Positions 47,552-53,930 of a DNA stretch of 64,000 nt are shown piece by piece. The notes below the pieces were generated by a model. It was not told where the DNA came from, searched no databases, and saw only the letters and a list, made by a program, of their open reading frames with translations. A program made the translations under genes and the position numbers. The number at the start of each line of letters is the position of its first letter. The stretch's first letter is position 1. Origin of the DNA: a virus; the IMG/VR virus record IMGVR_UViG_3300025865_000006, positions 53,071 through 117,070 of that record, one strand, 5' to 3'.

Positions 47552-47640
47552 GGATGGTTGGCCGAGTCTGGTAAGGCGCTAGTCTTGAAAACTGGTAAGG
47601 TGTAATAGCTACAGGGGTTCGAATCCTCTACCATCCGCCA
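47552..47640 (+). tRNA. tRNA-Ser (TGA)
   Basis: GGATGGT/ACCATCC acceptor, CTAGT-CTTGAAA-ACTGG anticodon arm, long variable arm, G73, CCA. Confidence 0.92.
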
Positions 47641-47645
47641 ATTTT

Positions 47646-47729
47646 GGAATGGAACCGAAGTGGTTAGGAGCCTGTCCGCTAAACAGGTGCAGGAAACTGT
47701 TGTCGGATCGTCACCGATCCATTCCGCCA
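47646..47729 (+). tRNA. tRNA-Ser (GCT), atypical
   Basis: GGAATGG/CCATTCC acceptor, CCTGT-CCGCTAA-ACAGG (C33), long variable arm, T loop ATCGTCA, G73, CCA. Confidence 0.8.
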
Positions 47730-47741
47730 ATTTAAAACCGT

Positions 47742-48089
47742 ATGGGGGAGTCTTATGTGGCAGATACAGGTAACTTTGCTACAGGGCAGGAAAGGTTTCC
47801 CCAAAAAAACGCCAAAAAGCGCATAGATGATTCTGGAAGTTATGCTAAGGGTGGAGAGAAGTTACCAAGAATGAATGCCATTGATCGTAAGAAACCCGGT
47901 ACTTTTGCTGACACGGAGGGAATTAAAATGGTGGATTCAGATAATAAAGGCGATCCACGGGTTACTTCTGACACCAAGGGAGAAGAAATAACCCCCGACA
48001 ATCCAGAAACAATCAAGCAGTTTCCAGTAGATTTAACTGATAAGAAAGCTGTAAAGAAAGTGGAAGGGGATCAGAAGGAAAAGAAATAG
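47742..48089 (+). CDS. charged, probably disordered hypothetical protein
   Basis: 115-aa K/D/E-rich ORF. Confidence 0.55.
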   Translation: MGESYVADTGNFATGQERFPQKNAKKRIDDSGSYAKGGEKLPRMNAIDRKKPGTFADTEGIKMVDSDNKGDPRVTSDTKGEEITPDNPETIKQFPVDLTDKKAVKKVEGDQKEKK

Positions 48090-48319
48090 ATGGATACCTA
48101 TACAATTTATAAATCTGCTAAAAACATATTAGTAGGTGCTCTTAAAGAGCATATAAAAGATAGAGAGTATATTTGGTACATGGAAGAAGCAGAATTCTAC
48201 GCTAATCAAGTTGTAGAAGAGTGTTTAAGGGAGGGACTAACCTATCCTTTTAAGGATTTAAATAAGCCTGATCAAACATATGCTGTACCAATGTATCCAA
48301 ATCCAAATTCACACTACTA

Positions 48320-48396
48320 GGCGTCGTGCCTGAGCGGCTTAAAGGGCTGGTCTGCAAAACCGGATTACGTGGGTCCGAATCCCACCGATGCCTCCA
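48320..48396 (+). tRNA. tRNA-Cys (GCA)
   Basis: GGCGTCG/CGATGCC acceptor, CTGGT-CTGCAAA-ACCGG anticodon arm, U73, CCA; T loop TCCGAAT. Confidence 0.9.
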
Positions 48397-48398
48397 AT

Positions 48399-48472
48399 GG
48401 GCCTATAGTTTAATGGGAGAACATATCGTTTGCACCGATAAAATCAGAGTTCGATTCTCTGTGGGTCCACCA
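48399..48472 (+). tRNA. tRNA-Ala (TGC)
   Basis: GGGCCTA/TGGGTCC acceptor with G3-U70, TATCG-TTTGCAC-CGATA anticodon arm, CCA. Confidence 0.92.
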
Positions 48473-48514
48473 AAATAATCAAAAAGTTGAACCTCGCCGT
48501 AGGAAAGGTGTACT

Positions 48515-48655
48515 ATGCAAGAAGTGAAGGGCACGGCCTTCAAACAAAGGGAATTACAGCCTTGGGAAAAACCGCTAAGTCCACCAAGGGCTGTTCCAAA
48601 GCCCATTTCGACAAAGAAAAAAGGCCGTTTCTCTCCGAAAGAGAAAACTGAATAA
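48515..48655 (+). CDS. 46-aa basic peptide (below the ORF-track cutoff)
   Basis: AGGAAAGGTG SD then MQEVKGTAFKQRELQPWEKPLSPPRAVPKPISTKKKGRFSPKEKTE. Confidence 0.45.
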   Translation: MQEVKGTAFKQRELQPWEKPLSPPRAVPKPISTKKKGRFSPKEKTE

Positions 48656-48757
48656 TTGGGGCGCTTTGGCTTCCTAGGAAATGCGCAAACAGTTCTGCAA
48701 CCGGGCAGACCGCCCCAAATAATTATCTGGATAGCAACAGAATTGAGGTAAGGAAGA

Positions 48758-50341
48758 ATGGTTAAGTTAAATACAAAGACAGCAGTAACCTTACAGTCCC
48801 TTGATCCCGAAAACGTGACTCTTAATGAAGAGGCCGCAGTAGCATGGAAGCTTCCTGCTAAGGATCGCCTAATTGAACGTGTTCTTGGAGCCTTTTGGAG
48901 TGAGGACACTTTCTACAAGAGCGGAGATAAGATTGCCGCAGAGATTGTAAAGGATATCCGTGAAGTAGCAGCAGTTAATCCGAAGTTTATTCTCCAGTTG
49001 GCTGCATATGCTCGTAACGAGATTTATCTCCGAACAACCCCACAGGTCTTGCTTGTGGAGGCGGCTAACATTGAAAAGTGTAAGCCATTTATTCGTGAGT
49101 ATACTCCTAAGATTGTAAAGCGTGCAGATGAATTGAGCGGTGTTATCGCTTACCAGTTGTCTACACATGGAAAGCCTATTCCAAATGCCCTAAAAAAGGG
49201 TTTGGCAGCAGCCTTCGCTACATTTGACGAATACCAATTGAATAAATATGATTCTGATAAGGGAGCAGTTTCTCTAGGTGATGTGCTCAATCTTATTTAC
49301 CGTAAGGAAGGATATCCTGTTTCCAAGGCTATGCGAAACTATCTTGTCAACGATGTTGTTGACGCAGAAGCATTGCCAAAGATTGCAGCACTAAAGCAGT
49401 TGCTTGCAAAGGATACACTGGATGTTGAGGCAAAGGCCCTTGTAAACGGTGGAGCAGTAACTTGGGAATCTTTCATCTCCAAGTTTGGTTCGTCTAAGGA
49501 AACTTGGGAGTTAATCGCTCCTAAGATGGGATATATGGCATTGCTACGTAACTTGCGTAACTTTGACCAAAAGGGTGTAACTCTTGATCCTATCCTTGCG
49601 CGAATTACAGATGAGGACGCTGTAAAGAAGTCTAAGCAGCTACCATATAGATTCTACTCTGCGTATAAGGAAATTGAGAATCAGAGCATTATGCGAGCAA
49701 TCGCTAAGGCTTTTGAATTGTCTATCTCTAATGTTACGCTTGGTGGAAGTACAGCGGTTCTTGTGGACCTTTCAGGGTCTATGACAGGAGCGCGAGTGTC
49801 CGAAAAGTCTAAGGTGACAAATGCAGAAGTTGCGGCCGTTCTTGGGGCAATCGTTACCAAGAAGGCTAAGGAATCTGTAGTTATCGGCTTCGGTCAGACT
49901 GCGCGTAGAATCATGGTAAATCCTGACGATACTATGATCACCAACATCGATAAAATTGTAAATACAAATGTCGGTCACAGTACAAACGCTGGACTTGCAT
50001 TCAAGATTTTGACTGATAACAAGATCAAGGTAGATCGTATCGTGCTTGTCTCTGACATGCAGTGTTACAATACCGAAAAAAGTCAGAGCAAGGCCGGAAT
50101 TTTTGGAACAACCTATCCTTGGTACACAGATTCGTTTGTGAATGAGGAATGGAAGAACTACTTGGCGCAAGTAAATAGAAATGCGTATCTATACTCTCTT
50201 GATGTTAGTTCGTATGGAACACGTCAGACTCCAAACAAGTCTAAGAACGTTATCTTGGTCAATGGGTGGTCAGACAAGATCATCGATTACATGAACATTG
50301 TGGAGAACAATGTTATGGAGCAGCACATTAATAAGTGGTAA
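48758..50341 (+). CDS. rsr: Ro60/Rsr-like TROVE + vWA RNA-binding protein
   Basis: N.E...A N-terminus, EDTFY, LAAYAR...LRT.P, IVKRADEL, LKKGLA.AF..FDEYQL.KY, TWE, MGYMALLRNLRN, SKQLPYRFYSAY; vWA MIDAS VDLSGSM and SDMQ. Confidence 0.92.
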   Translation: MVKLNTKTAVTLQSLDPENVTLNEEAAVAWKLPAKDRLIERVLGAFWSEDTFYKSGDKIAAEIVKDIREVAAVNPKFILQLAAYARNEIYLRTTPQVLLVEAANIEKCKPFIREYTPKIVKRADELSGVIAYQLSTHGKPIPNALKKGLAAAFATFDEYQLNKYDSDKGAVSLGDVLNLIYRKEGYPVSKAMRNYLVNDVVDAEALPKIAALKQLLAKDTLDVEAKALVNGGAVTWESFISKFGSSKETWELIAPKMGYMALLRNLRNFDQKGVTLDPILARITDEDAVKKSKQLPYRFYSAYKEIENQSIMRAIAKAFELSISNVTLGGSTAVLVDLSGSMTGARVSEKSKVTNAEVAAVLGAIVTKKAKESVVIGFGQTARRIMVNPDDTMITNIDKIVNTNVGHSTNAGLAFKILTDNKIKVDRIVLVSDMQCYNTEKSQSKAGIFGTTYPWYTDSFVNEEWKNYLAQVNRNAYLYSLDVSSYGTRQTPNKSKNVILVNGWSDKIIDYMNIVENNVMEQHINKW

Positions 50342-50347
50342 TATCGC

Positions 50348-50440
50348 GGGTGCTACCGCTGTAGAGCGTGGTCGTACGTTGGAGTAATCCCCTGTACGAT
50401 TTCACAGGCTGGTACAGGCTGGTGAACAGTCAGCCCACCC
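50348..50440 (+). ncRNA. structured RNA immediately after the Ro60 stop codon
   Basis: GGGTG/CACCC closing stem, TCGTAC/GTACGA helix capped by GGA-GTAA-TCC, GGCTG-GTGAA-CAGTC hairpin. Confidence 0.5.
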
Positions 50441-50544
50441 AAAATATCAAACAATTGATCCGCCGTGGTCGTCACCGATAAGGGGCTGTTAAAGGATCAA
50501 GCTAGACGAGCCGGACTAAGCTAGCAATATAATAGGAGATTAAA

Positions 50545-50739
50545 ATGGAAACCCCCGATTCAAAAACGGTAACGGCAGCAACCGATAGAGCCAAAGAAGT
50601 TGTAGAAGCCTTTAAGATTCTTCGTAAAGAGGATAACATTCAGGAGAACGCAAAACATCTTTGGTCACTAGCGAATTCATTAGTGGCTGATATTCATCGT
50701 GGCTTGGACAACACAAGTTACGTAGATAGAGCAGAATAA
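50545..50739 (+). CDS. small hypothetical protein
   Basis: AGGAG SD, 64-aa helical ORF. Confidence 0.6.
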   Translation: METPDSKTVTAATDRAKEVVEAFKILRKEDNIQENAKHLWSLANSLVADIHRGLDNTSYVDRAE

Positions 50740-50741
50740 TA

Positions 50742-50815
50742 TAATCGGCAGTGAAGTTTAGAGATACTTCTCTTGAAATGAAAACCAAACTCTAAGCGAC
50801 CCAATTCTCCGATTA
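50742..50815 (+). ncRNA. scaffold RNA 1 (Y-RNA-like; Ser-UGA-like anticodon loop cargo)
   Basis: TAATCGG/CCGATTA, CAGTGAA, GTTTAGAG/CTCTAAGC, ATACTTC, GACCCAATTCT. Confidence 0.7.
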
Positions 50816-50828
50816 ATTGAATATTATA

Positions 50829-50916
50829 TTATCTAGGTAGTGAAGGTTTTGGATACTTCTAAAAACTTCAAAATGTCTTTTGTAAAAAGCCAGAGCCACT
50901 AAATCCTCCTAGATAA
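50829..50916 (+). ncRNA. scaffold RNA 2 (Y-RNA-like; A/U-rich cargo)
   Basis: TTATCTAGG/CCTAGATAA, TAGTGAA, GGTTTTGG/CCAGAGCC, ATACTTC, ACTAAATCCT. Confidence 0.7.
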
Positions 50917-50929
50917 ATTTAGAACCTAG

Positions 50930-51073
50930 TATTAGGTAGTGAAGCATAGGATTTCTTCATGGGAGCCGCATGTCGGGAGTTCAATTCTCTCTTCCCCGAA
51001 CAATCGCCGGGGAATAGCTCAGTGTTAGAGCAGCGGCCAGTAAAAAAGCCTACGCGACCAAATTCTCCTAATA
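50930..51073 (+). ncRNA. scaffold RNA 3 (YrlA-like; permuted tRNA-Pro-like cargo)
   Basis: TATTAGG/CCTAATA, TAGTGAA, GCATAGG/CCTACGC; cargo GCCGC-ATGTC-T arm-TTCCCCG..CGGGGAA-D arm-GCGGC. Confidence 0.8.
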
Positions 51074-51079
51074 AATTTT

Positions 51080-51155
51080 GGCCCAATCGTCTAACGGTTG
51101 AGGATTGCAGATTTTCACTCTGCCGATCAGAGTTCGATTCTCTGTTGGGCTACCA
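51080..51155 (+). tRNA. tRNA-Glu (TTC)
   Basis: GGCCCAA/TTGGGCT acceptor, GCAGA-TTTTCAC-TCTGC anticodon arm, GTTCGATTC, CCA. Confidence 0.9.
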
Positions 51156-51166
51156 AAGAGGTACAA

Positions 51167-51409
51167 ATGAAGAGTACGTTTAAAACTAAGAATTATACTG
51201 GGACAGCTTGTCTAGCAATGCTGATAGCGGTAGTTCTGTTCTTGGTTCTATATTTAGGACTGATCGGCGGGGTAATAACCTTGCTATGGAACTGGCTGTT
51301 AGTAGGACTATTTCAGTTCCCAATTATTAGTTGGGCGCAAGGAATAGGTATAGCACTTCTATTAGGTATAGTAGGTAGCTTCTTTAAAGGCCAAATAACA
51401 AGTAAATAA
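51167..51409 (+). CDS. small membrane protein
   Basis: AGAGG SD; hydrophobic ORF with LWNW..F..P.IS..Q..G motif; start refined from 51098. Confidence 0.7.
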   Translation: MKSTFKTKNYTGTACLAMLIAVVLFLVLYLGLIGGVITLLWNWLLVGLFQFPIISWAQGIGIALLLGIVGSFFKGQITSK

Positions 51410-51539
51410 GGTAGTGCAGCCGTTGGTTACTTCACTTTTAATGAAGAGTAAAGGGTTCGAATCCCTTATCCTCCGTCATGGGGGATGGGTGTAATGGTAA
51501 CACGCTAAATATCCAATAGCGACTAATTCTCCTTATTTA
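51403..51539 (+). ncRNA. scaffold RNA 4 (permuted tRNA-Lys(TTT)-like cargo with intact anticodon arm)
   Basis: TAAATAAGG/CCTTATTTA, TAGTGCA, GCCGTTGG/CCAATAGC; cargo CTTCA-CTTTTAA-TGAAG, AAGGG-TTCGAAT-CCCTT, ATCCTCC/GGGGGAT, GTGT-AATGGTA-ACAC. Confidence 0.8.
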
Positions 51540-51552
51540 ATTTGCGTTTTAT

Positions 51553-51674
51553 ATTAGAGCAGTGAAGTGTTCAGATACTTCGGTTACAGTAGCTTCGGTT
51601 ACATCAGCAAGGTTCAACCCCCTGCAAACGGGATGAAAGTCTCGTGTTTTCTGGCACAGCAAATTCTCTCTAAT
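51553..51674 (+). ncRNA. scaffold RNA 5 (UUCG hairpin, T-arm-like hairpin and GAAA hairpin cargo)
   Basis: ATTAGAG/CTCTAAT, CAGTGAA, GTGTTCAGA/TCTGGCAC, TACTTC; GTAGC-TTCG-GTTAC, GCAAGG-TTCAACC-CCTGC, ACGGGAT-GAAA-GTCTCGT. Confidence 0.75.
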
Positions 51675-51785
51675 CTAATTTAATTTTGTAACGGCCTACG
51701 TGCTTGCGAGCGGAGGGGTAATGAATTATTACCGAGGCAACAGGACTACGTAACCTGTAACATTTTATAAGCCCTTATAGTTATA

Positions 51786-51932
51786 ATTAGTTTATGGGTA
51801 GTGACGGTTTCGGATACTTCAACATATTAACACCAATTATAAAATGTCGTACGCCTCTAATAAGTAGGCTTGGCAACCTAACCCACGCGGGGACGCGCAT
51901 CCCGAAGTCATCTAATCCTCTCTATAACTAAT
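51786..51932 (+). ncRNA. scaffold RNA 6 (unrelated cargo)
   Basis: ATTAGTT..ATGGG/CTCTATAACTAAT, TAGTGAC, GGTTTCGG/CCGAAGTC, ATACTTC, ATCTAATCCT. Confidence 0.7.
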
Positions 51933-51935
51933 CGT

Positions 51936-52009
51936 TGGCGTGTCGTTCAATGGTAGGACGCTAGGCTGTTAACCTTGATATGGTGGTTCAAATCCACCCG
52001 TGCCAGCCA
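51936..52009 (+). tRNA. tRNA-Asn (GTT)
   Basis: TGGCGTG/CGTGCCA acceptor, CTAGG-CTGTTAA-CCTTG anticodon arm, G73, CCA. Confidence 0.9.
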
Positions 52010-52020
52010 AACTTTTTCGC

Positions 52021-52095
52021 AGGGGAGTAGCATAATGGTAATGCAGCGGTCTTTGGAACCGCGTAGTGTAGGTTCGAATCCTACCTCCCCCGCCA
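52021..52095 (+). tRNA. tRNA-Gln (TTG)
   Basis: AGGGGAG/CTCCCCC acceptor (1-72 mismatch), GCGGT-CTTTGGA-ACCGC anticodon arm, G73, CCA. Confidence 0.9.
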
Positions 52096-52115
52096 ATTTT
52101 TTATTTGGAGAGAAG

Positions 52116-52352
52116 ATGAGACGCATATTAAAGGGATTACGAATCTTTGTTTTAGGCGCTATACCTGTAGCAATTATACTAGGTATTCCGGGGTTAGCAA
52201 TTCTTATACTGGGTAAAGAACTATTTGGGTATGTGATCTTTGTCGCAGCGCTAATTATGGCTACCTTTGCATTAGGTTTGATAGTAGATATGTTTCTAGA
52301 AGATATTAAAGAGAGCCGTGCCCGTAATAGTCATAATTCACACCCATGCTAG
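52116..52352 (+). CDS. small membrane protein (two TM helices)
   Basis: GGAG SD; hydrophobic segments; start refined from 51975, which overlaps tRNAs. Confidence 0.65.
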   Translation: MRRILKGLRIFVLGAIPVAIILGIPGLAILILGKELFGYVIFVAALIMATFALGLIVDMFLEDIKESRARNSHNSHPC

Positions 52353-53032
52353 GAAATACAAAGGTTCTGGACAAGGGTTTCGTTGGCTTGGTGAGTTATG
52401 CGGGCGGCGATCTATCTGTGGTTGCTTCTGCAAGAGTCTCCAATGGCCTAGGACCGGAGGAAACGTCTAAGGGTGCAGAGAAGGACCAGAAGCTAATTAA
52501 TTACTTAATGAAACACCGGCATGGAACGCCTTTTGAACATAACATGTTCACCTTTTATGTGAAAGCCCCGATATTTGTAGCAAGAGAGTGGATGCGCCAT
52601 CGTATAGGCTCATATAATGAGAGAAGTGGTAGATATACAGAGTTTAAACCAGAGTTTTATATTCCTCTGGTGGCGCGAGGACCAGCCGAGACTAATAAGC
52701 AAGGGTCCATTATGCTCAATAGTGAAGCAGCTAATACTTGGGTGGCCATTACAATTGAAAACTCTTCTATGGAAGCATACGAGGACTATAAGAGGCTGAT
52801 TTCCTTTGGAATAGCAAAAGAAATGGCTAGGATGATTCTTCCGGTAAATACTTACACAGAGTATTATTGGACCGTTAATGCACGATCCCTGATGAATTTT
52901 CTAAGCCTTCGTTGCGGAGAAGACGCTCAGTGGGAAATCAGGCAGTACGCCGAAGCAATCAGAGATATCTTCAAAGACATTATGCCTATGACATACAAGG
53001 CATGGATTGAGAACGGGAGTTTAGCACCATGA
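52346..53032 (+). CDS. thyX: FAD-dependent thymidylate synthase
   Basis: ARVS, H.TPFEH, APIFVAREWMRHRIGSYNERSGRY, KEMARMILP, AQWEIR. Confidence 0.95.
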   Translation: MLGNTKVLDKGFVGLVSYAGGDLSVVASARVSNGLGPEETSKGAEKDQKLINYLMKHRHGTPFEHNMFTFYVKAPIFVAREWMRHRIGSYNERSGRYTEFKPEFYIPLVARGPAETNKQGSIMLNSEAANTWVAITIENSSMEAYEDYKRLISFGIAKEMARMILPVNTYTEYYWTVNARSLMNFLSLRCGEDAQWEIRQYAEAIRDIFKDIMPMTYKAWIENGSLAP

Positions 53033-53394
53033 CGATACCAAACACACTACCAGATTGGGAAAAGAGTTATTGGTATGATTCCGAGCCGATTGATCCTGAA
53101 AAAGAAGGCATACCGGGACCCGGCGCAAGAGCATATATCACCTACTCACTAGTTGATCTAGGCGAATGGCTTGCTCCGCTAAGGACTGGAACAGTTTATG
53201 TATTCAGACCGGGCAAGAGATATGATCTTGTTCTATTAACTGATGATGGTTGGATTACCCAATATCCAGATGCCCTATTTACGGGCGCAGAGGGTGATAC
53301 AGGAAAGTTTATTTCAAACATTACAGGAACAAGTGCCCCGCTACCTGTTAGTACTAGTAATGTTATTATAGCCGCAAGACTAAGTAAGCTATAG
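53029..53394 (+). CDS. hypothetical protein
   Basis: 121-aa ORF coupled to thyX by ATGA overlap. Confidence 0.6.
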   Translation: MTIPNTLPDWEKSYWYDSEPIDPEKEGIPGPGARAYITYSLVDLGEWLAPLRTGTVYVFRPGKRYDLVLLTDDGWITQYPDALFTGAEGDTGKFISNITGTSAPLPVSTSNVIIAARLSKL

Positions 53395-53468
53395 CCCGGA
53401 TTGTTGTAACGGAAGCGATTCAGTTCTACACACTGGCAGACGAGGTTCGATTCCTCGATTCGGGACCA
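53395..53468 (+). tRNA. tRNA-Val (TAC), atypical (C33)
   Basis: CCCGGAT/ATTCGGG acceptor, TCAGT-TCTACAC-ACTGG anticodon arm, CGAGG-TTCGATT-CCTCG, A73, CCA. Confidence 0.8.
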
Positions 53469-53768
53469 ATCATTAAAGTGAGTGAGATGCAAGCAGAAAA
53501 AATTGAATTTACACAGGCGACTTTTGAGGATAAGTACTGCCCTAGCTGCGATTACGGCTATGACGATCCCGAAGATTCCTGTTTATGCGATGAAAGTTGT
53601 GGAGCGATAGGATGCCAAGGCTCAAAATACCATCAAAAAGAGTTAAATCGCCCAAAATATCCTTCTGGACTAGATTAAAAAGTGGTAAGATTACTCTACG
53701 TGGAAGAATAACCTCAATAGAGAAGTCTCCCCTAGAAAAGCCAGATAAAGTAGCACACGCTGACTCAT

Positions 53769-53846
53769 AGCCCTTAGGCCAACCGGTTTGTAGGCGTCTG
53801 TCTTATAAACAGATTTTGGTGGGTTCGACTCCCACAGGGGCTACCA
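53769..53846 (+). tRNA. tRNA-Ile (TAT)
   Basis: AGCCCTT/AGGGGCT acceptor, TCTGT-CTTATAA-ACAGA anticodon arm, GTGGG-TTCGACT-CCCAC, A73, CCA. Confidence 0.88.
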
Positions 53847-53856
53847 ACTTAATAAT

Positions 53857-53930
53857 GCCGCTGTCGTATAACGGAATTACTACTGTTTTGTACTCAGTAA
53901 ATCGGGGTTCAATTCCTCGTAGCGGCCCCA
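53857..53930 (+). tRNA. tRNA-Thr (TGT)
   Basis: GCCGCTG/TAGCGGC acceptor, ACTG(T)-TTTGTAC-(T)CAGT anticodon arm, CCA. Confidence 0.85.

What the first reader, a model, noticed from the sequence alone, without database searches (positions are those of the whole stretch)
50930..51073. Unit 3 carries a circularly permuted tRNA with tRNA-Pro(UGG) identity elements
Seen: the 3' half of a tRNA comes first (TGGGA, GCCGC, variable ATGTC, T arm GGGAG-TTCAATT-CTCTC, acceptor strand TTCCCCG, A, ACA). After a short linker comes the 5' half (CGGGGAA, TA, D arm GCTC-AGTGTTA-GAGC, A, GCGGC, CA). The dinucleotide CA occurs at both junctions, and joining there gives the 7-nt loop CA-TGG-GA. Established: C1-G72, A73 and G37 are features of bacterial tRNA-Pro. 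Position 33 would be A instead of U, and CCA is degenerate (ACA). No conventional tRNA-Pro gene lies in this window. Inference: either a YrlA-like mimic recently derived from tRNA-Pro, or a permuted tRNA gene matured by excision and ligation.
Basis: partly seen in the sequence, partly recalled or inferred. Interest (0 to 1): 0.85.

Follow-up and report, generated by a model that had tools for sequence, protein, structure and literature searches.

The report
Phage Y RNA mimicking proline tRNA
Unit 3 is a small phage RNA of the known YrlA (Y RNA) type, a tRNA turned inside out and mounted on a handle for the phage's own Ro60 protein; its tRNA part looks like proline tRNA, but it is not a working tRNA gene.

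Summary
Window 50931-51072 (+) reads T arm, closed 7-bp acceptor hairpin, D arm, and a 5-bp stem in the anticodon-stem position.

The element is the third of six same-scaffold units lying 590 nt and more 3' of a 527-aa Ro60/TROVE gene in a 117-kb phage genome. Rfam's YrlA model matches it end to end but below threshold: 30.9 bits against 69. The same scaffold occurs 128 times on the Ro60 strand and 0 times on the other strand in 160 related loci. All six helices covary.

The proline likeness is more than the chosen join:
- Seven of eight orthologues keep UGG followed by G (the eighth has AGG), and seven of eight have U33.
- The body without the anticodon arm is closest to phage tRNA-Pro genes.

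The excision-and-ligation reading is not supported. The phage has a normal tRNA-Pro(UGG) gene, there is no bulge-helix-bulge motif, no splicing endonuclease or ligase gene was found, and units without tRNA content share the scaffold.

The scan has noted similar phage Ro60/Y-like RNAs on other DNA.

Verdict: a new variant of a known kind.

The parts
48758..50341 (+). Ro60 (TROVE + vWA) gene, 527 aa; the presumed protein partner
   Evidence: Pfam TROVE 2.8e-34 and vWA_Ro60 1.2e-07. PDB matches: Thermus phage phiLo Ro60 9L5Y/9KOP at 4.2e-27 and D. radiodurans Rsr 2NVO at 1.9e-07.
50931..51072 (+). Unit 3 as a whole: a YrlA-type Y RNA made of a handle plus a tRNA-like domain
   Evidence: Rfam RF02553 matches 50944-51058, model 1-114, at 30.9 bits. 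Own model R1 scores it 126.8 bits. Fold.
50931..50936 (+). Basal stem, 5' strand (pairs with 51067-51072)
   Evidence: 6/6 pairs here. The flanks covary among the six units and in relatives (helix 1).
50937..50943 (+). Conserved 5' handle motif UAGUGAA (family consensus Y-AGUG-NN)
   Evidence: Shared by all six units and by units next to Ro60 genes in 52 sources.
50944..50951 (+). Inner handle stem, 5' strand (pairs with 51048-51055; 6 of 8 pairs in this unit)
   Evidence: helix 2: 94.7% of cells paired, all 7 pairs covary.
50952..50958 (+). Conserved handle motif, here UUUCUUC (family consensus WUACUUC)
50958..50964 (+). CAUGGGA: unpaired strand in the place of anticodon-loop positions 32-38 (UGG, then G37)
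   Evidence: Orthologues read CUUGGGA, UUUGGGA or GUUGGGG, and one reads GUAGGGC.
50965..50969 (+). GCCGC, 3' strand of the anticodon-stem equivalent (pairs with 51033-51037)
   Evidence: Five G-C pairs. Helix 3 in relatives is 83.7% paired, the weakest helix.
50970..50974 (+). Variable-loop equivalent AUGUC (C48 could pair with G15)
50975..50991 (+). T arm GGGAG-UUCAAUU-CUCUC
   Evidence: Helix 4 is 99.1% paired.
50992..51014 (+). Closed acceptor hairpin: 7-bp stem (C1-G72) and a 9-nt loop that starts with A73 and then ACA
   Evidence: Helix 5 is 95.7% paired.
51015..51032 (+). U8 A9, D arm GCUC-AGUGUUA-GAGC, A26
   Evidence: Helix 6 is 97.7% paired.
51033..51037 (+). GCGGC, 5' strand of the anticodon-stem equivalent
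51038..51047 (+). Unpaired 3' side of the internal loop (CAGUAAAAAA)
   Evidence: 51038 is A in a DNA relative.
51048..51055 (+). Inner handle stem, 3' strand
51056..51066 (+). Conserved 3' handle strand GACCAAAUUCU
   Evidence: Repeat families D3 and D4.
51067..51072 (+). Basal stem, 3' strand
51080..51155 (+). tRNA-Glu(UUC) gene, 7 nt after the unit. RNase P cutting at its 5' end would define the unit's 3' trailer (inference).
   Evidence: ARAGORN; Rfam tRNA 55.6 bits.

Best explanation
Unit 3 is a non-coding Y RNA of the YrlA type, made by the phage as a partner for its own Ro60 protein.

Shown:
- The two ends of the RNA pair to form a handle. It has a 6-bp basal stem, a conserved internal loop (UAGUGAA facing GACCAAAUUCU), an 8-position inner stem and a UUUCUUC motif. 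All six units behind the Ro60 gene share this handle.
- The interior is a tRNA body in permuted order: anticodon-stem strand, variable loop, T arm, acceptor stem closed by a loop, D arm, second anticodon-stem strand. The handle enters where the anticodon loop would be.

Inferred:
- Ro60 binds the handle, and the tRNA-like domain recruits a tRNA-binding effector. This is by analogy with Rsr-YrlA and with phiLo Ro60-Yrl-PNPase.
- The unit is cut out of a long Ro60-Y RNA-tRNA transcript.
- The tRNA body descends from a tRNA-Pro(UGG)-like gene pair (3' part of one copy, spacer, 5' part of the next) and still carries proline-type marks: C1-G72, A73, G35 G36 G37.
- It does not become a decoding tRNA.
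For: Gene context:
- The Ro60/TROVE gene ends at 50341 on the same strand.
- Six repeated units follow it.

Match to the YrlA model:
- Rfam YrlA matches 50944-51058 over the whole model at 30.9 bits, E 2e-4 in a 1.25-kb search.

The handle is tied to Ro60:
- A script detector finds 128 units on the Ro60 strand and 0 on the opposite strand in 160 Ro60-bearing loci (1.19 Mb).
- A covariance model built from 8 orthologues finds 196 matches at E<=0.01 in 100 sources, 191 of them on the Ro60 strand.
- All 35 modelled pairs covary, with 95.1% of cells paired against 57.3% in shuffles.

Substitutions in a close relative:
- All four fall at unpaired positions of unit 3.

Proline likeness:
- ARAGORN calls the re-permuted sequence tRNA-Pro(tgg).
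- 7 of 8 orthologues have UGG followed by G at the same place, and 1 has AGG.
- With the anticodon arm removed, the best match among 344 phage tRNAs is a tRNA-Pro(tgg), and 5 of the top 8 are Pro although only 15 of the 344 are Pro.
- Over the full length, 55 of 72 positions are identical to that tRNA-Pro.
- Among 73 family members with a 7-bp acceptor hairpin, 7 of the 8 with C1-G72 plus A73 also carry an NGGRA motif, against 9 of the 65 others.

Descent from tRNA genes:
- 13 of those 73 acceptor loops read N73-CCA, including the unit 3 orthologue in L122.
- All 29 of the phage's real tRNAs encode CCA.

Literature:
- YrlA RNAs are described as resembling circularly permuted tRNAs with closed acceptor stems, possibly derived from dimeric tRNA transcripts (passages of Wang et al. 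2018, 10.1101/312249).
- They lie within 4 kb of Ro60 on the same strand (Chen et al. 2014, PMC4201824, section 5).
Against: - The Rfam score is far below the gathering score (30.9 against 69).
- No YrlA match reached threshold in the window or in 14 related loci.
- The GNCGAAN0-1G motif that Chen et al. propose for Rsr recognition is absent from all six units. The handle is therefore of another type, and its binding to Ro60 is inferred from gene neighbourhood only.
- There is no transcript evidence for unit 3. The two RNA-library contigs that match cover only 51589-51933.
- The fold energy alone is not unusual (z -1.53).

Against the proline reading specifically:
- Averaged by isotype, Ala scores as high as Pro (9.3 against 8.7).
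- The five best Pro genes are related to one another.
- The phage's own tRNA-Pro is not similar.
- C1-G72 plus A73 occurs in 5 of the phage's 29 tRNAs.
- Six of the eight orthologues have a non-Pro tRNA as best body match.
- NGGRA could instead be the counterpart of the GGGGAA strand in the Rfam YrlA consensus.
Confidence: 0.8

Rival explanations
1. A working circularly permuted tRNA-Pro gene. The precursor's ends are cut and ligated at GCGGC-CA/UGGGA-GCCGC, and the acceptor loop is then opened by RNase P and a 3' nuclease to give a decoding tRNA.
For: - The re-permuted sequence is called tRNA-Pro(tgg) by ARAGORN.
- The acceptor stem has 7 bp.
- Orthologues give canonical CU-UGG-GA loops.
Against: - The phage already has a conventional tRNA-Pro(tgg).
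- A33 and ACA in place of CCA, while all 29 real tRNAs of the phage encode CCA.
- The flanks do not form a bulge-helix-bulge motif. They form a 14 x 10 nt internal loop and the handle.
- No tRNA-splicing endonuclease, RtcB or T4 Rnl1 gene was found in the phage (the Rnl1 search also rang in none of the 14 control genomes).
- The same flanks enclose 19-nt and 30-nt inserts with no tRNA content in units 1 and 2.
- Per the abstract of Soma 2014 (PMC3978253), permuted tRNA genes are known from algae and one archaeon and depend on the splicing machinery.
Confidence: 0.03
2. A two-piece, chargeable tRNA-Pro mimic. RNase P opens the acceptor loop 5' of C51008. The 3' side is trimmed to A73 and receives CCA. 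ProRS, or another proline-tRNA-specific factor, then recognises G72, A73, G35 and G36 while the handle holds the halves together and carries Ro60.
For: - M. smegmatis YrlA, which also has a 7-bp acceptor stem, is cut by RNase P and receives CCA in vivo (Chen et al. 2014, section 8).
- Unit 3 has a 7-bp stem, C1-G72 and A73.
- The proline-type acceptor marks and NGG travel together across divergent phages.
- N73-CCA is encoded in 13 of 73 acceptor loops of the family.
Against: - There are no RNA ends or charging data.
- The window's copy has A33, a weakened D loop (GU in place of GG) and ACA rather than CCA.
- The anticodon-loop nucleotides sit in a large internal loop, not in a 7-nt loop.
Confidence: 0.1
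3. A decaying remnant of a tandem tRNA duplication with no function of its own.
For: - A33, ACA, a D loop lacking GG, and two mismatches in the inner handle stem (6 of 8 pairs).
- One relative (L199) has lost the D arm.
Against: - All helices are intact here.
- Orthologues in phages with 54-78% Ro60 identity keep them through compensatory changes.
- The four substitutions in a close relative avoid paired positions.
- The unit sits in a conserved scaffold found only on the Ro60 strand.
Confidence: 0.05
4. Part of a small protein-coding gene: the ORF 50959-51183 (+, 74 aa) or the ORF 50919-51086 (-, 55 aa).
For: Both ORFs are in the mechanical list.
Against: - The + ORF runs through the tRNA-Glu gene.
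- Orthologues differ by gaps of 1, 2 and 5 nt inside the region, so no reading frame is kept.
- The substitution pattern follows base pairs, not codons.
Confidence: 0.01

Closest known systems
YrlA (Y RNA-like A; Rfam RF02553) of Salmonella, M. smegmatis and mycobacteriophages, bound by Rsr/Ro60 (Chen et al. 2014, PMC4201824; Wang et al. 2018, 10.1101/312249)
   Same: - Encoded next to Ro60 on the same strand.
- The 5' and 3' ends pair.
- The interior is a tRNA-like domain in the order T arm, closed acceptor stem, D arm, with the long stem leaving from the anticodon-stem position.
- It has a 7-bp acceptor stem, as in the M. smegmatis RNA.
   Different: - It scores 30.9 bits against Rfam's 69.
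- The handle has UAGUGAA...UUUCUUC / GACCAAAUUCU and lacks GNCGAAN0-1G.
- Six units lie in a row, interleaved with tRNA genes.
- It keeps proline-type anticodon-loop and acceptor nucleotides, whereas Wang et al. state that YrlA lacks the anticodon loop.
Yrl1/Yrl2 of Thermus phage phiLo with phiLo Ro60 (NAR 2025, PMC12135203; passages read)
   Same: - Phage-encoded Ro60, the closest solved relative of this ORF, with more than one Y-like RNA beside the gene.
- Proposed to act by recruiting a host enzyme (PNPase).
   Different: - The phiLo RNAs are described with a CGAA motif in a large bulge and without a tRNA-like domain. They lie upstream of the gene.
- Here there are six units downstream, and at least units 3 and 4 are tRNA-like.
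Circularly permuted tRNA genes of Cyanidioschyzon merolae, other algae and one archaeon (Soma 2014, PMC3978253; abstract read)
   Same: The 3' half of a tRNA is encoded upstream of the 5' half, with a short linker between the acceptor strands.
   Different: - Those genes need a bulge-helix-bulge motif, the splicing endonuclease and a ligase, and they yield the cell's functional tRNA.
- Here there is no such motif or enzyme, a normal tRNA-Pro gene exists, and the flanks are a Ro60-type handle.
D. radiodurans Yrn1 (Chen et al. 2014)
   Same: A Y RNA with a T-arm-like module that tethers Rsr to an effector.
   Different: Yrn1 has the opposite arm order and no full D arm. Some sister units in relatives (for example L121 6933-7064) resemble that order, but unit 3 does not.

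Membership tests
YrlA-type Y RNA | Encoded within about 4 kb of a Ro60/TROVE gene and on the same strand | tested here: met
   The Ro60 ORF is 48758-50341 (+). The unit starts at 50931 (+), 590 nt after the stop.
YrlA-type Y RNA | tRNA-like domain in the order (V) - T stem-loop - acceptor-like stem-loop - D stem-loop, with the terminal stem in the anticodon-stem position | tested here: met
   Rfam alignment, ARAGORN cloverleaf after re-permutation, MFE fold and covariation of all helices.
YrlA-type Y RNA | GNCGAAN0-1G motif near the 5' end (the proposed Rsr contact) | tested here: not met
   A regex over all six units finds no match. The 5' handle reads UAGUGAAG.
YrlA-type Y RNA | Score at or above Rfam RF02553's gathering score (69 bits) | tested here: not met
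   30.9 bits. There is no match at gathering level in the window or in 14 related loci.
YrlA-type Y RNA | Nucleotides for tRNA tertiary contacts: U8, A14, G18-G19, T loop UUCRANY, 15-48 pair | tested here: inconclusive
   U8, A14, G15 with C48, and the T loop UUCAAUU are present. The D loop AGUGUUA has GU where GG is expected. Five of the seven orthologues also lack GG there.
YrlA-type Y RNA | Bound by Ro60/Rsr in vivo | not testable with these tools
   Needs pull-down or gel shift.
Circularly permuted tRNA gene | 3' half upstream of 5' half on one strand | tested here: met
Circularly permuted tRNA gene | Bulge-helix-bulge motif formed by the sequences next to the junction | tested here: not met
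   The fold shows a 14-nt by 10-nt internal loop followed by the handle stems. It does not show two 3-nt bulges around a 4-bp helix.
Circularly permuted tRNA gene | Splicing endonuclease and ligase available | tested here: not met
   No PF01974, PF01139 or PF09511 match in the 117-kb phage genome. The host is unknown and was not tested. The PF09511 search also found nothing in the controls.
Circularly permuted tRNA gene | Circular intermediate or junction-spanning RNA | not testable with these tools
   No RNA-library contig covers unit 3.
Circularly permuted tRNA gene | Supplies a tRNA that the genome otherwise lacks | tested here: not met
   A conventional tRNA-Pro(tgg) lies at genome 2524-2598.
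tRNA-Pro identity set (bacterial ProRS elements G72, A73, G35, G36, plus G37; recalled from general knowledge, not from a call) | G35 G36 and G37 in the loop position | tested here: met
   CAUGGGA at 50958-50964. 8 of 8 orthologues have NGG followed by G (UGG in 7).
tRNA-Pro identity set (bacterial ProRS elements G72, A73, G35, G36, plus G37; recalled from general knowledge, not from a call) | C1-G72 and A73 | tested here: met
   Met in the window and in L201, L124 and L207 (4 of 8). L122 and L123 have U1-A72 with A73, L119 has U1-A72 with C73, and L118 has a 5-bp stem. Not specific: 5 of the phage's 29 tRNAs have it.
tRNA-Pro identity set (bacterial ProRS elements G72, A73, G35, G36, plus G37; recalled from general knowledge, not from a call) | Body closer to tRNA-Pro than to other isotypes | tested here: inconclusive
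   For the window and L201, the top hit and 5-6 of the top 8 are Pro. For the other six orthologues the best Pro ranks 5th to 9th of 344. Isotype means are Ala 9.3 and Pro 8.7. tRNAscan-SE isotype models were not available.
tRNA-Pro identity set (bacterial ProRS elements G72, A73, G35, G36, plus G37; recalled from general knowledge, not from a call) | U33 and a 3' CCA | tested here: not met
   A33 and ACA in the window. U33 is present in 7 of 8 orthologues, and ACCA only in L122.

The most novel reading that the evidence does not exclude
The tRNA-like domains of these phage Y RNAs are isotype-specific mimics, not generic ones. Unit 3 and its relatives present the proline identity set (C1-G72, A73, G35-G37). 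After RNase P opens the acceptor loop, they would be recognised, and perhaps charged or modified, by ProRS, TrmD or another proline-tRNA-specific host factor, bringing Ro60 to that factor or acting as a decoy. Sister units would do the same for Lys, Asn, Thr and other isotypes.
Probability: 0.12. Interest if true: 0.8.

Novelty: new variant of a known kind. Interest (0 to 1): 0.5.

Why it matters
The effector that binds the tRNA-like domain of YrlA RNAs is unknown (passages of Wang et al. 2018).

Three observations from this locus bear on that:
- It belongs to a large phage family of such RNAs with a handle that Rfam's model does not capture at threshold.
- It shows acceptor stems, discriminator bases, CCA remnants and anticodon-loop nucleotides that look inherited from real tRNA genes. 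That gives sequence-level support to the published idea of an origin from dimeric tRNA transcripts.
- It suggests that the mimicry may be isotype-specific, here for proline. If so, the search for the effector narrows to enzymes that read tRNA identity, which can be tested with purified ProRS, TrmD, RNase P and the phage Ro60.

If it is only a relic of ancestry, the unit is one more phage Y RNA.

Tried and rejected
Searches that led nowhere:
- BLAST of 48758-52100 against 50,697 phage records found 23 records, none covering more than 2% of the query and all but one (an unannotated 43-base, 95%-identical stretch) lying on the query's tRNA genes, so there is no named relative.
- A single-protein scan of IMG/VR with the Ro60 ORF confirmed no relative among 8 stretches. 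An alignment of 36 of the 120 listed homologues was needed.
- A pattern scan of IMG/VR with the 5' handle motif returned 115 stretches with one match each, mostly chance. Only 8 of 166 motif hits in those loci also showed the two stems.
- Rfam at gathering level found no YrlA in the 14 loci searched, of the 80 then held.
- The promoter and terminator scans gave no more than chance: 6 promoter-like sites against 8.0 +/- 3.2 expected, and 3 terminator-like sites against 3.7 +/- 2.0.
- Laying 4 of the 17 listed runs gave no RNA cover on unit 3, so nothing can be said about its expression, ends or junctions.
- The fold z-score of -1.53 is not evidence by itself.

Ideas dropped:
- A GAAG/CUUC hairpin inside the handle. 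Units 4 and 6 have GCAG and GACG without compensating changes.
- A metazoan-like GGU/ACC helix. The GG instead pairs with the CC of CUCC, as shown by the G-C to A-U switch in unit 5.
- 'CA at both junctions' as a recombination scar. It is not conserved.
- Recent derivation from the phage's own tRNA-Pro.

Limits of what was read or run:
- Two reviews (PMC10870794, PMC6047535) are not held.
- The supplementary tables of Chen et al. 2014 listing phage YrlAs could not be seen. They may already include relatives of this family.
- My literature searches for a description of this handle, or of anticodon-loop remnants in Y RNAs, were. None showed one.
- searched 100 of the 161 sources held (the window plus 160 loci). 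Duplicates and L236-L277 were left out.
- One search dropped L201 and L124 because their T loops (UGCAA, UGCGA) failed my T-loop filter. Both have C1-G72, A73 and UGG.
Full report
**What is there.**
Window 50931-51072 (+) contains, in order:
- a 6-nt strand (AUUAGG);
- UAGUGAA;
- an 8-nt stem strand;
- UUUCUUC;
- CAUGGGA;
- GCCGC;
- AUGUC;
- a T arm (GGGAG-UUCAAUU-CUCUC);
- UUCCCCG, then A;
- an 8-nt linker;
- CGGGGAA, then UA;
- a D arm (GCUC-AGUGUUA-GAGC), then A;
- GCGGC;
- a 10-nt strand;
- the partner of the 8-nt stem;
- GACCAAAUUCU;
- the partner of the first strand (CCUAAU).

ARAGORN and Rfam at gathering level see no gene here as the DNA stands. The halves can be swapped by coordinates in a script, 51008-51039 followed by 50960-51003. 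ARAGORN then draws a regular 72-nt cloverleaf and calls it tRNA-Pro(tgg). The native strand's minimum-free-energy fold shows the same T, acceptor and D arms, the GCCGC/GCGGC stem and two closing stems. Its energy is not exceptional (-40.5 kcal/mol, z -1.53).

**Context.**
- The window is bases 53071-117070 of a 117,070-base virus record estimated 98% complete.
- The ORF 48758-50341 (+) is a Ro60: Pfam TROVE 2.8e-34 and the Ro60 vWA domain.
- Its closest solved relatives are the Ro60 of Thermus phage phiLo (4.2e-27) and D. radiodurans Rsr (1.9e-07).
- Behind it lie six units starting at about 50743, 50832, 50931, 51406, 51554 and 51793. They share the 5' and 3' sequences listed above.
- The units are interleaved with tRNA-Glu (51080-51155), two short ORFs without Pfam matches, and tRNA-Asn and tRNA-Gln.
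- Rfam's YrlA model (RF02553) aligns to 50944-51058 over all 114 positions. It scores only 30.9 bits against a gathering score of 69 (E 1.4e-3 in 9 kb, 2e-4 in 1.25 kb).

**The handle is a real, Ro60-linked RNA element.**
An alignment of 36 Ro60 relatives was used to fetch 80 viral and 80 metagenomic loci.
- A script looked for the 5' motif plus both stems. It found 128 units on the Ro60 strand and none on the other strand in 1.19 Mb. The motif alone gave 180 against 13.
- In 115 unrelated loci that hold the motif by construction, only 8 of 166 motif hits also had the stems.
- Units come in arrays of up to six per locus.
- A covariance model built from unit 3 and seven orthologues found 196 matches at E<=0.01 in 100 sources, 191 of them on the Ro60 strand.
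- On the 138 distinct aligned rows, 95.1% of pair cells are standard pairs (57.3% shuffled, 40-50% slid) and all 35 pairs change on both sides. The alignment is fitted to the model, which favours the structure. The margin is nevertheless large and the script control is independent of it.
- The stem in the anticodon-stem position is the least constant helix (83.7% paired).

**Comparison with what is in print.**
- Chen et al. 2014 (PMC4201824; sections 5, 6 and 8 read) define YrlA RNAs by three things: position within about 4 kb of Ro60 on the same strand, a GNCGAAN0-1G motif, and a domain with T, acceptor-like and D stem-loops.
- They report such RNAs in 22 phages. They also show that the M. 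smegmatis RNA, which has a 7-bp acceptor stem, is cut by RNase P and receives CCA.
- Passages of Wang et al. 2018 (10.1101/312249) say three things. [quoted passage not shown] YrlA lacks the anticodon loop. YrlA may derive from dimeric tRNA transcripts.

Unit 3 meets the position and layout criteria. It fails the motif criterion (absent from all six units) and the Rfam threshold. No YrlA match at threshold appeared in 14 related loci either. The handle is a different one, and I found no description of it in the five literature searches. The supplementary tables of Chen et al. could not be read.

**Is the proline likeness real?**
The anticodon call depends on the join. Over 196 trimmings ARAGORN made 40 junction calls, of which 5 were Pro(tgg).
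- Seven orthologues read CUUGGGA (L118, L122, L207), UUUGGG-type (L123, L124), GUUGGGG (L201) or GUAGGGC (L119) at the same place. With the window's unit that makes NGG followed by G in 8 of 8, UGG in 7 and U33 in 7. The window's A33 is the exception.
- With the anticodon arm removed altogether (positions 1-26 and 44-73), the window's body is closest to a tRNA-Pro(tgg) among 344 ARAGORN tRNAs from all fetched loci. Five of the top eight are Pro, although only 15 of the 344 are Pro (hypergeometric 4e-6, but those Pro genes are related to each other). L201 behaves likewise.
- Among 73 family members with a 7-bp acceptor hairpin, 7 of the 8 with C1-G72 and A73 carry an NGGRA motif, against 9 of 65 others (one-sided Fisher 5e-5; lineages are not independent).

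Results against the proline reading:
- The phage's own tRNA-Pro is dissimilar, 19th of 29.
- Ala equals Pro on isotype means.
- The other six orthologues have non-Pro best hits, with the best Pro at ranks 5-9.
- C1-G72 with A73 occurs in 5 of the phage's 29 tRNAs.
- NGGRA may correspond to the GGGGAA strand of the Rfam consensus.

I rate descent from, or mimicry of, tRNA-Pro at roughly even odds.

**Origin from tRNA genes.**
- Thirteen of the 73 acceptor loops read N73-CCA at the exact position, against about 1 expected. CCA is the commonest triplet there.
- The L122 orthologue of unit 3 reads ACCA where the window reads AACA.
- All 29 real tRNAs of the phage encode CCA.

This fits an origin from the 3' part of one tRNA gene, its CCA and spacer, and the 5' part of the next copy.

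**Why it is not a permuted tRNA gene in the algal sense** (abstract of Soma 2014, PMC3978253):
- A normal tRNA-Pro(tgg) gene exists at genome 2524-2598.
- The junction flanks form a 14 x 10 nt internal loop and the handle, not a bulge-helix-bulge.
- No splicing endonuclease, RtcB, T4-type ligase or CCA-adding enzyme gene was found in the phage.
- Units 1 and 2 carry the same flanks around 19-nt and 30-nt inserts.
- The 3' 'CA' is 'AA' in a close DNA relative.

**Expression.**
Of 17 runs listed, I laid four.
- Two metatranscriptome contigs from one study, about 91-93% identical by their mismatch and gap counts, cover 51589-51933 (units 5-6) and stop at the start of tRNA-Asn. Neither covers unit 3. 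DNA can also be present in such libraries.
- A DNA relative carries four substitutions inside unit 3 (50970, 51007, 51038, 51059). All are at unpaired positions.
- No promoter-like or terminator-like excess was found. I therefore infer co-transcription with the neighbouring genes and processing by the tRNA enzymes.

**Verdict.**
- Unit 3 is a YrlA-type Y RNA for the phage's Ro60 (confidence 0.8).
- It has an undescribed handle and proline-type tRNA marks.
- It is a new variant of a known kind.

Noticed in passing
window 51406-51536 (+): Unit 4 is a complete four-arm tRNA-like domain opened between the D arm and the anticodon arm. It has an intact anticodon-type hairpin (loop CUUUUAA) whose 5' strand is the handle's CUUC. 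Of 29 junction-spanning ARAGORN calls over the trimmings, 25 are Lys(ttt). In the wider family, 47 of 92 tRNA-like units have such a hairpin, and 42 of these have U33 and a purine at 37. GUU is the commonest 'anticodon' (8).
   Followed up: partly
loci L118-L235 (alignment A3): 13 of 73 units with a 7-bp acceptor hairpin encode N73-CCA at the start of the loop. This suggests RNase P and 3' processing to a tRNA-like end, or recent descent from tRNA genes.
   Followed up: partly
window 51589-51933: Two short contigs (370 and 284 nt) from metatranscriptome libraries of one study match units 5-6 at roughly 91-93% identity (by their mismatch and gap counts). Both stop where tRNA-Asn begins. This is a weak hint that the array is transcribed in a relative.
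   Followed up: no
L121 6933-7064, L122 7087-7219, L123 6892-7007: The same handle encloses tRNA-like inserts in normal order (D arm, anticodon arm, T arm), with the handle in the acceptor position. ARAGORN calls these Lys(ctt) and 'SeC(tca)'. One scaffold therefore carries at least three tRNA topologies.
   Followed up: partly
L199 4773-4891: A close copy of the L118 orthologue of unit 3 lacks the whole D arm.
   Followed up: no
L130 2541-2889: A tmRNA gene (Rfam 119.5 bits) lies about 1.6 kb upstream of the Ro60 gene of another viral contig, beside its Y-like units.
   Followed up: no
window 50545-50739 and 51167-51409 (+): Two short ORFs (64 and 80 aa) without Pfam matches sit inside the RNA array. 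The second looks hydrophobic by eye.
   Followed up: no
window 2593 (+): One further hit of the scaffold detector at its lowest threshold (12 of 14 pairs), far from the Ro60 gene. It may be chance.
   Followed up: no
genome 245-6892 and window 47552-53930: The phage encodes 29 tRNAs in two clusters, and all have an encoded CCA. Five have C1-G72 with A73.
   Followed up: partly
L228 2499-2636, L215 1888-2024, L229 248-389, L139 3556-3691, L232 291-356: Five model matches lie on the strand opposite to the Ro60 gene. In these loci the RNA and the gene may be divergently arranged.
   Followed up: no
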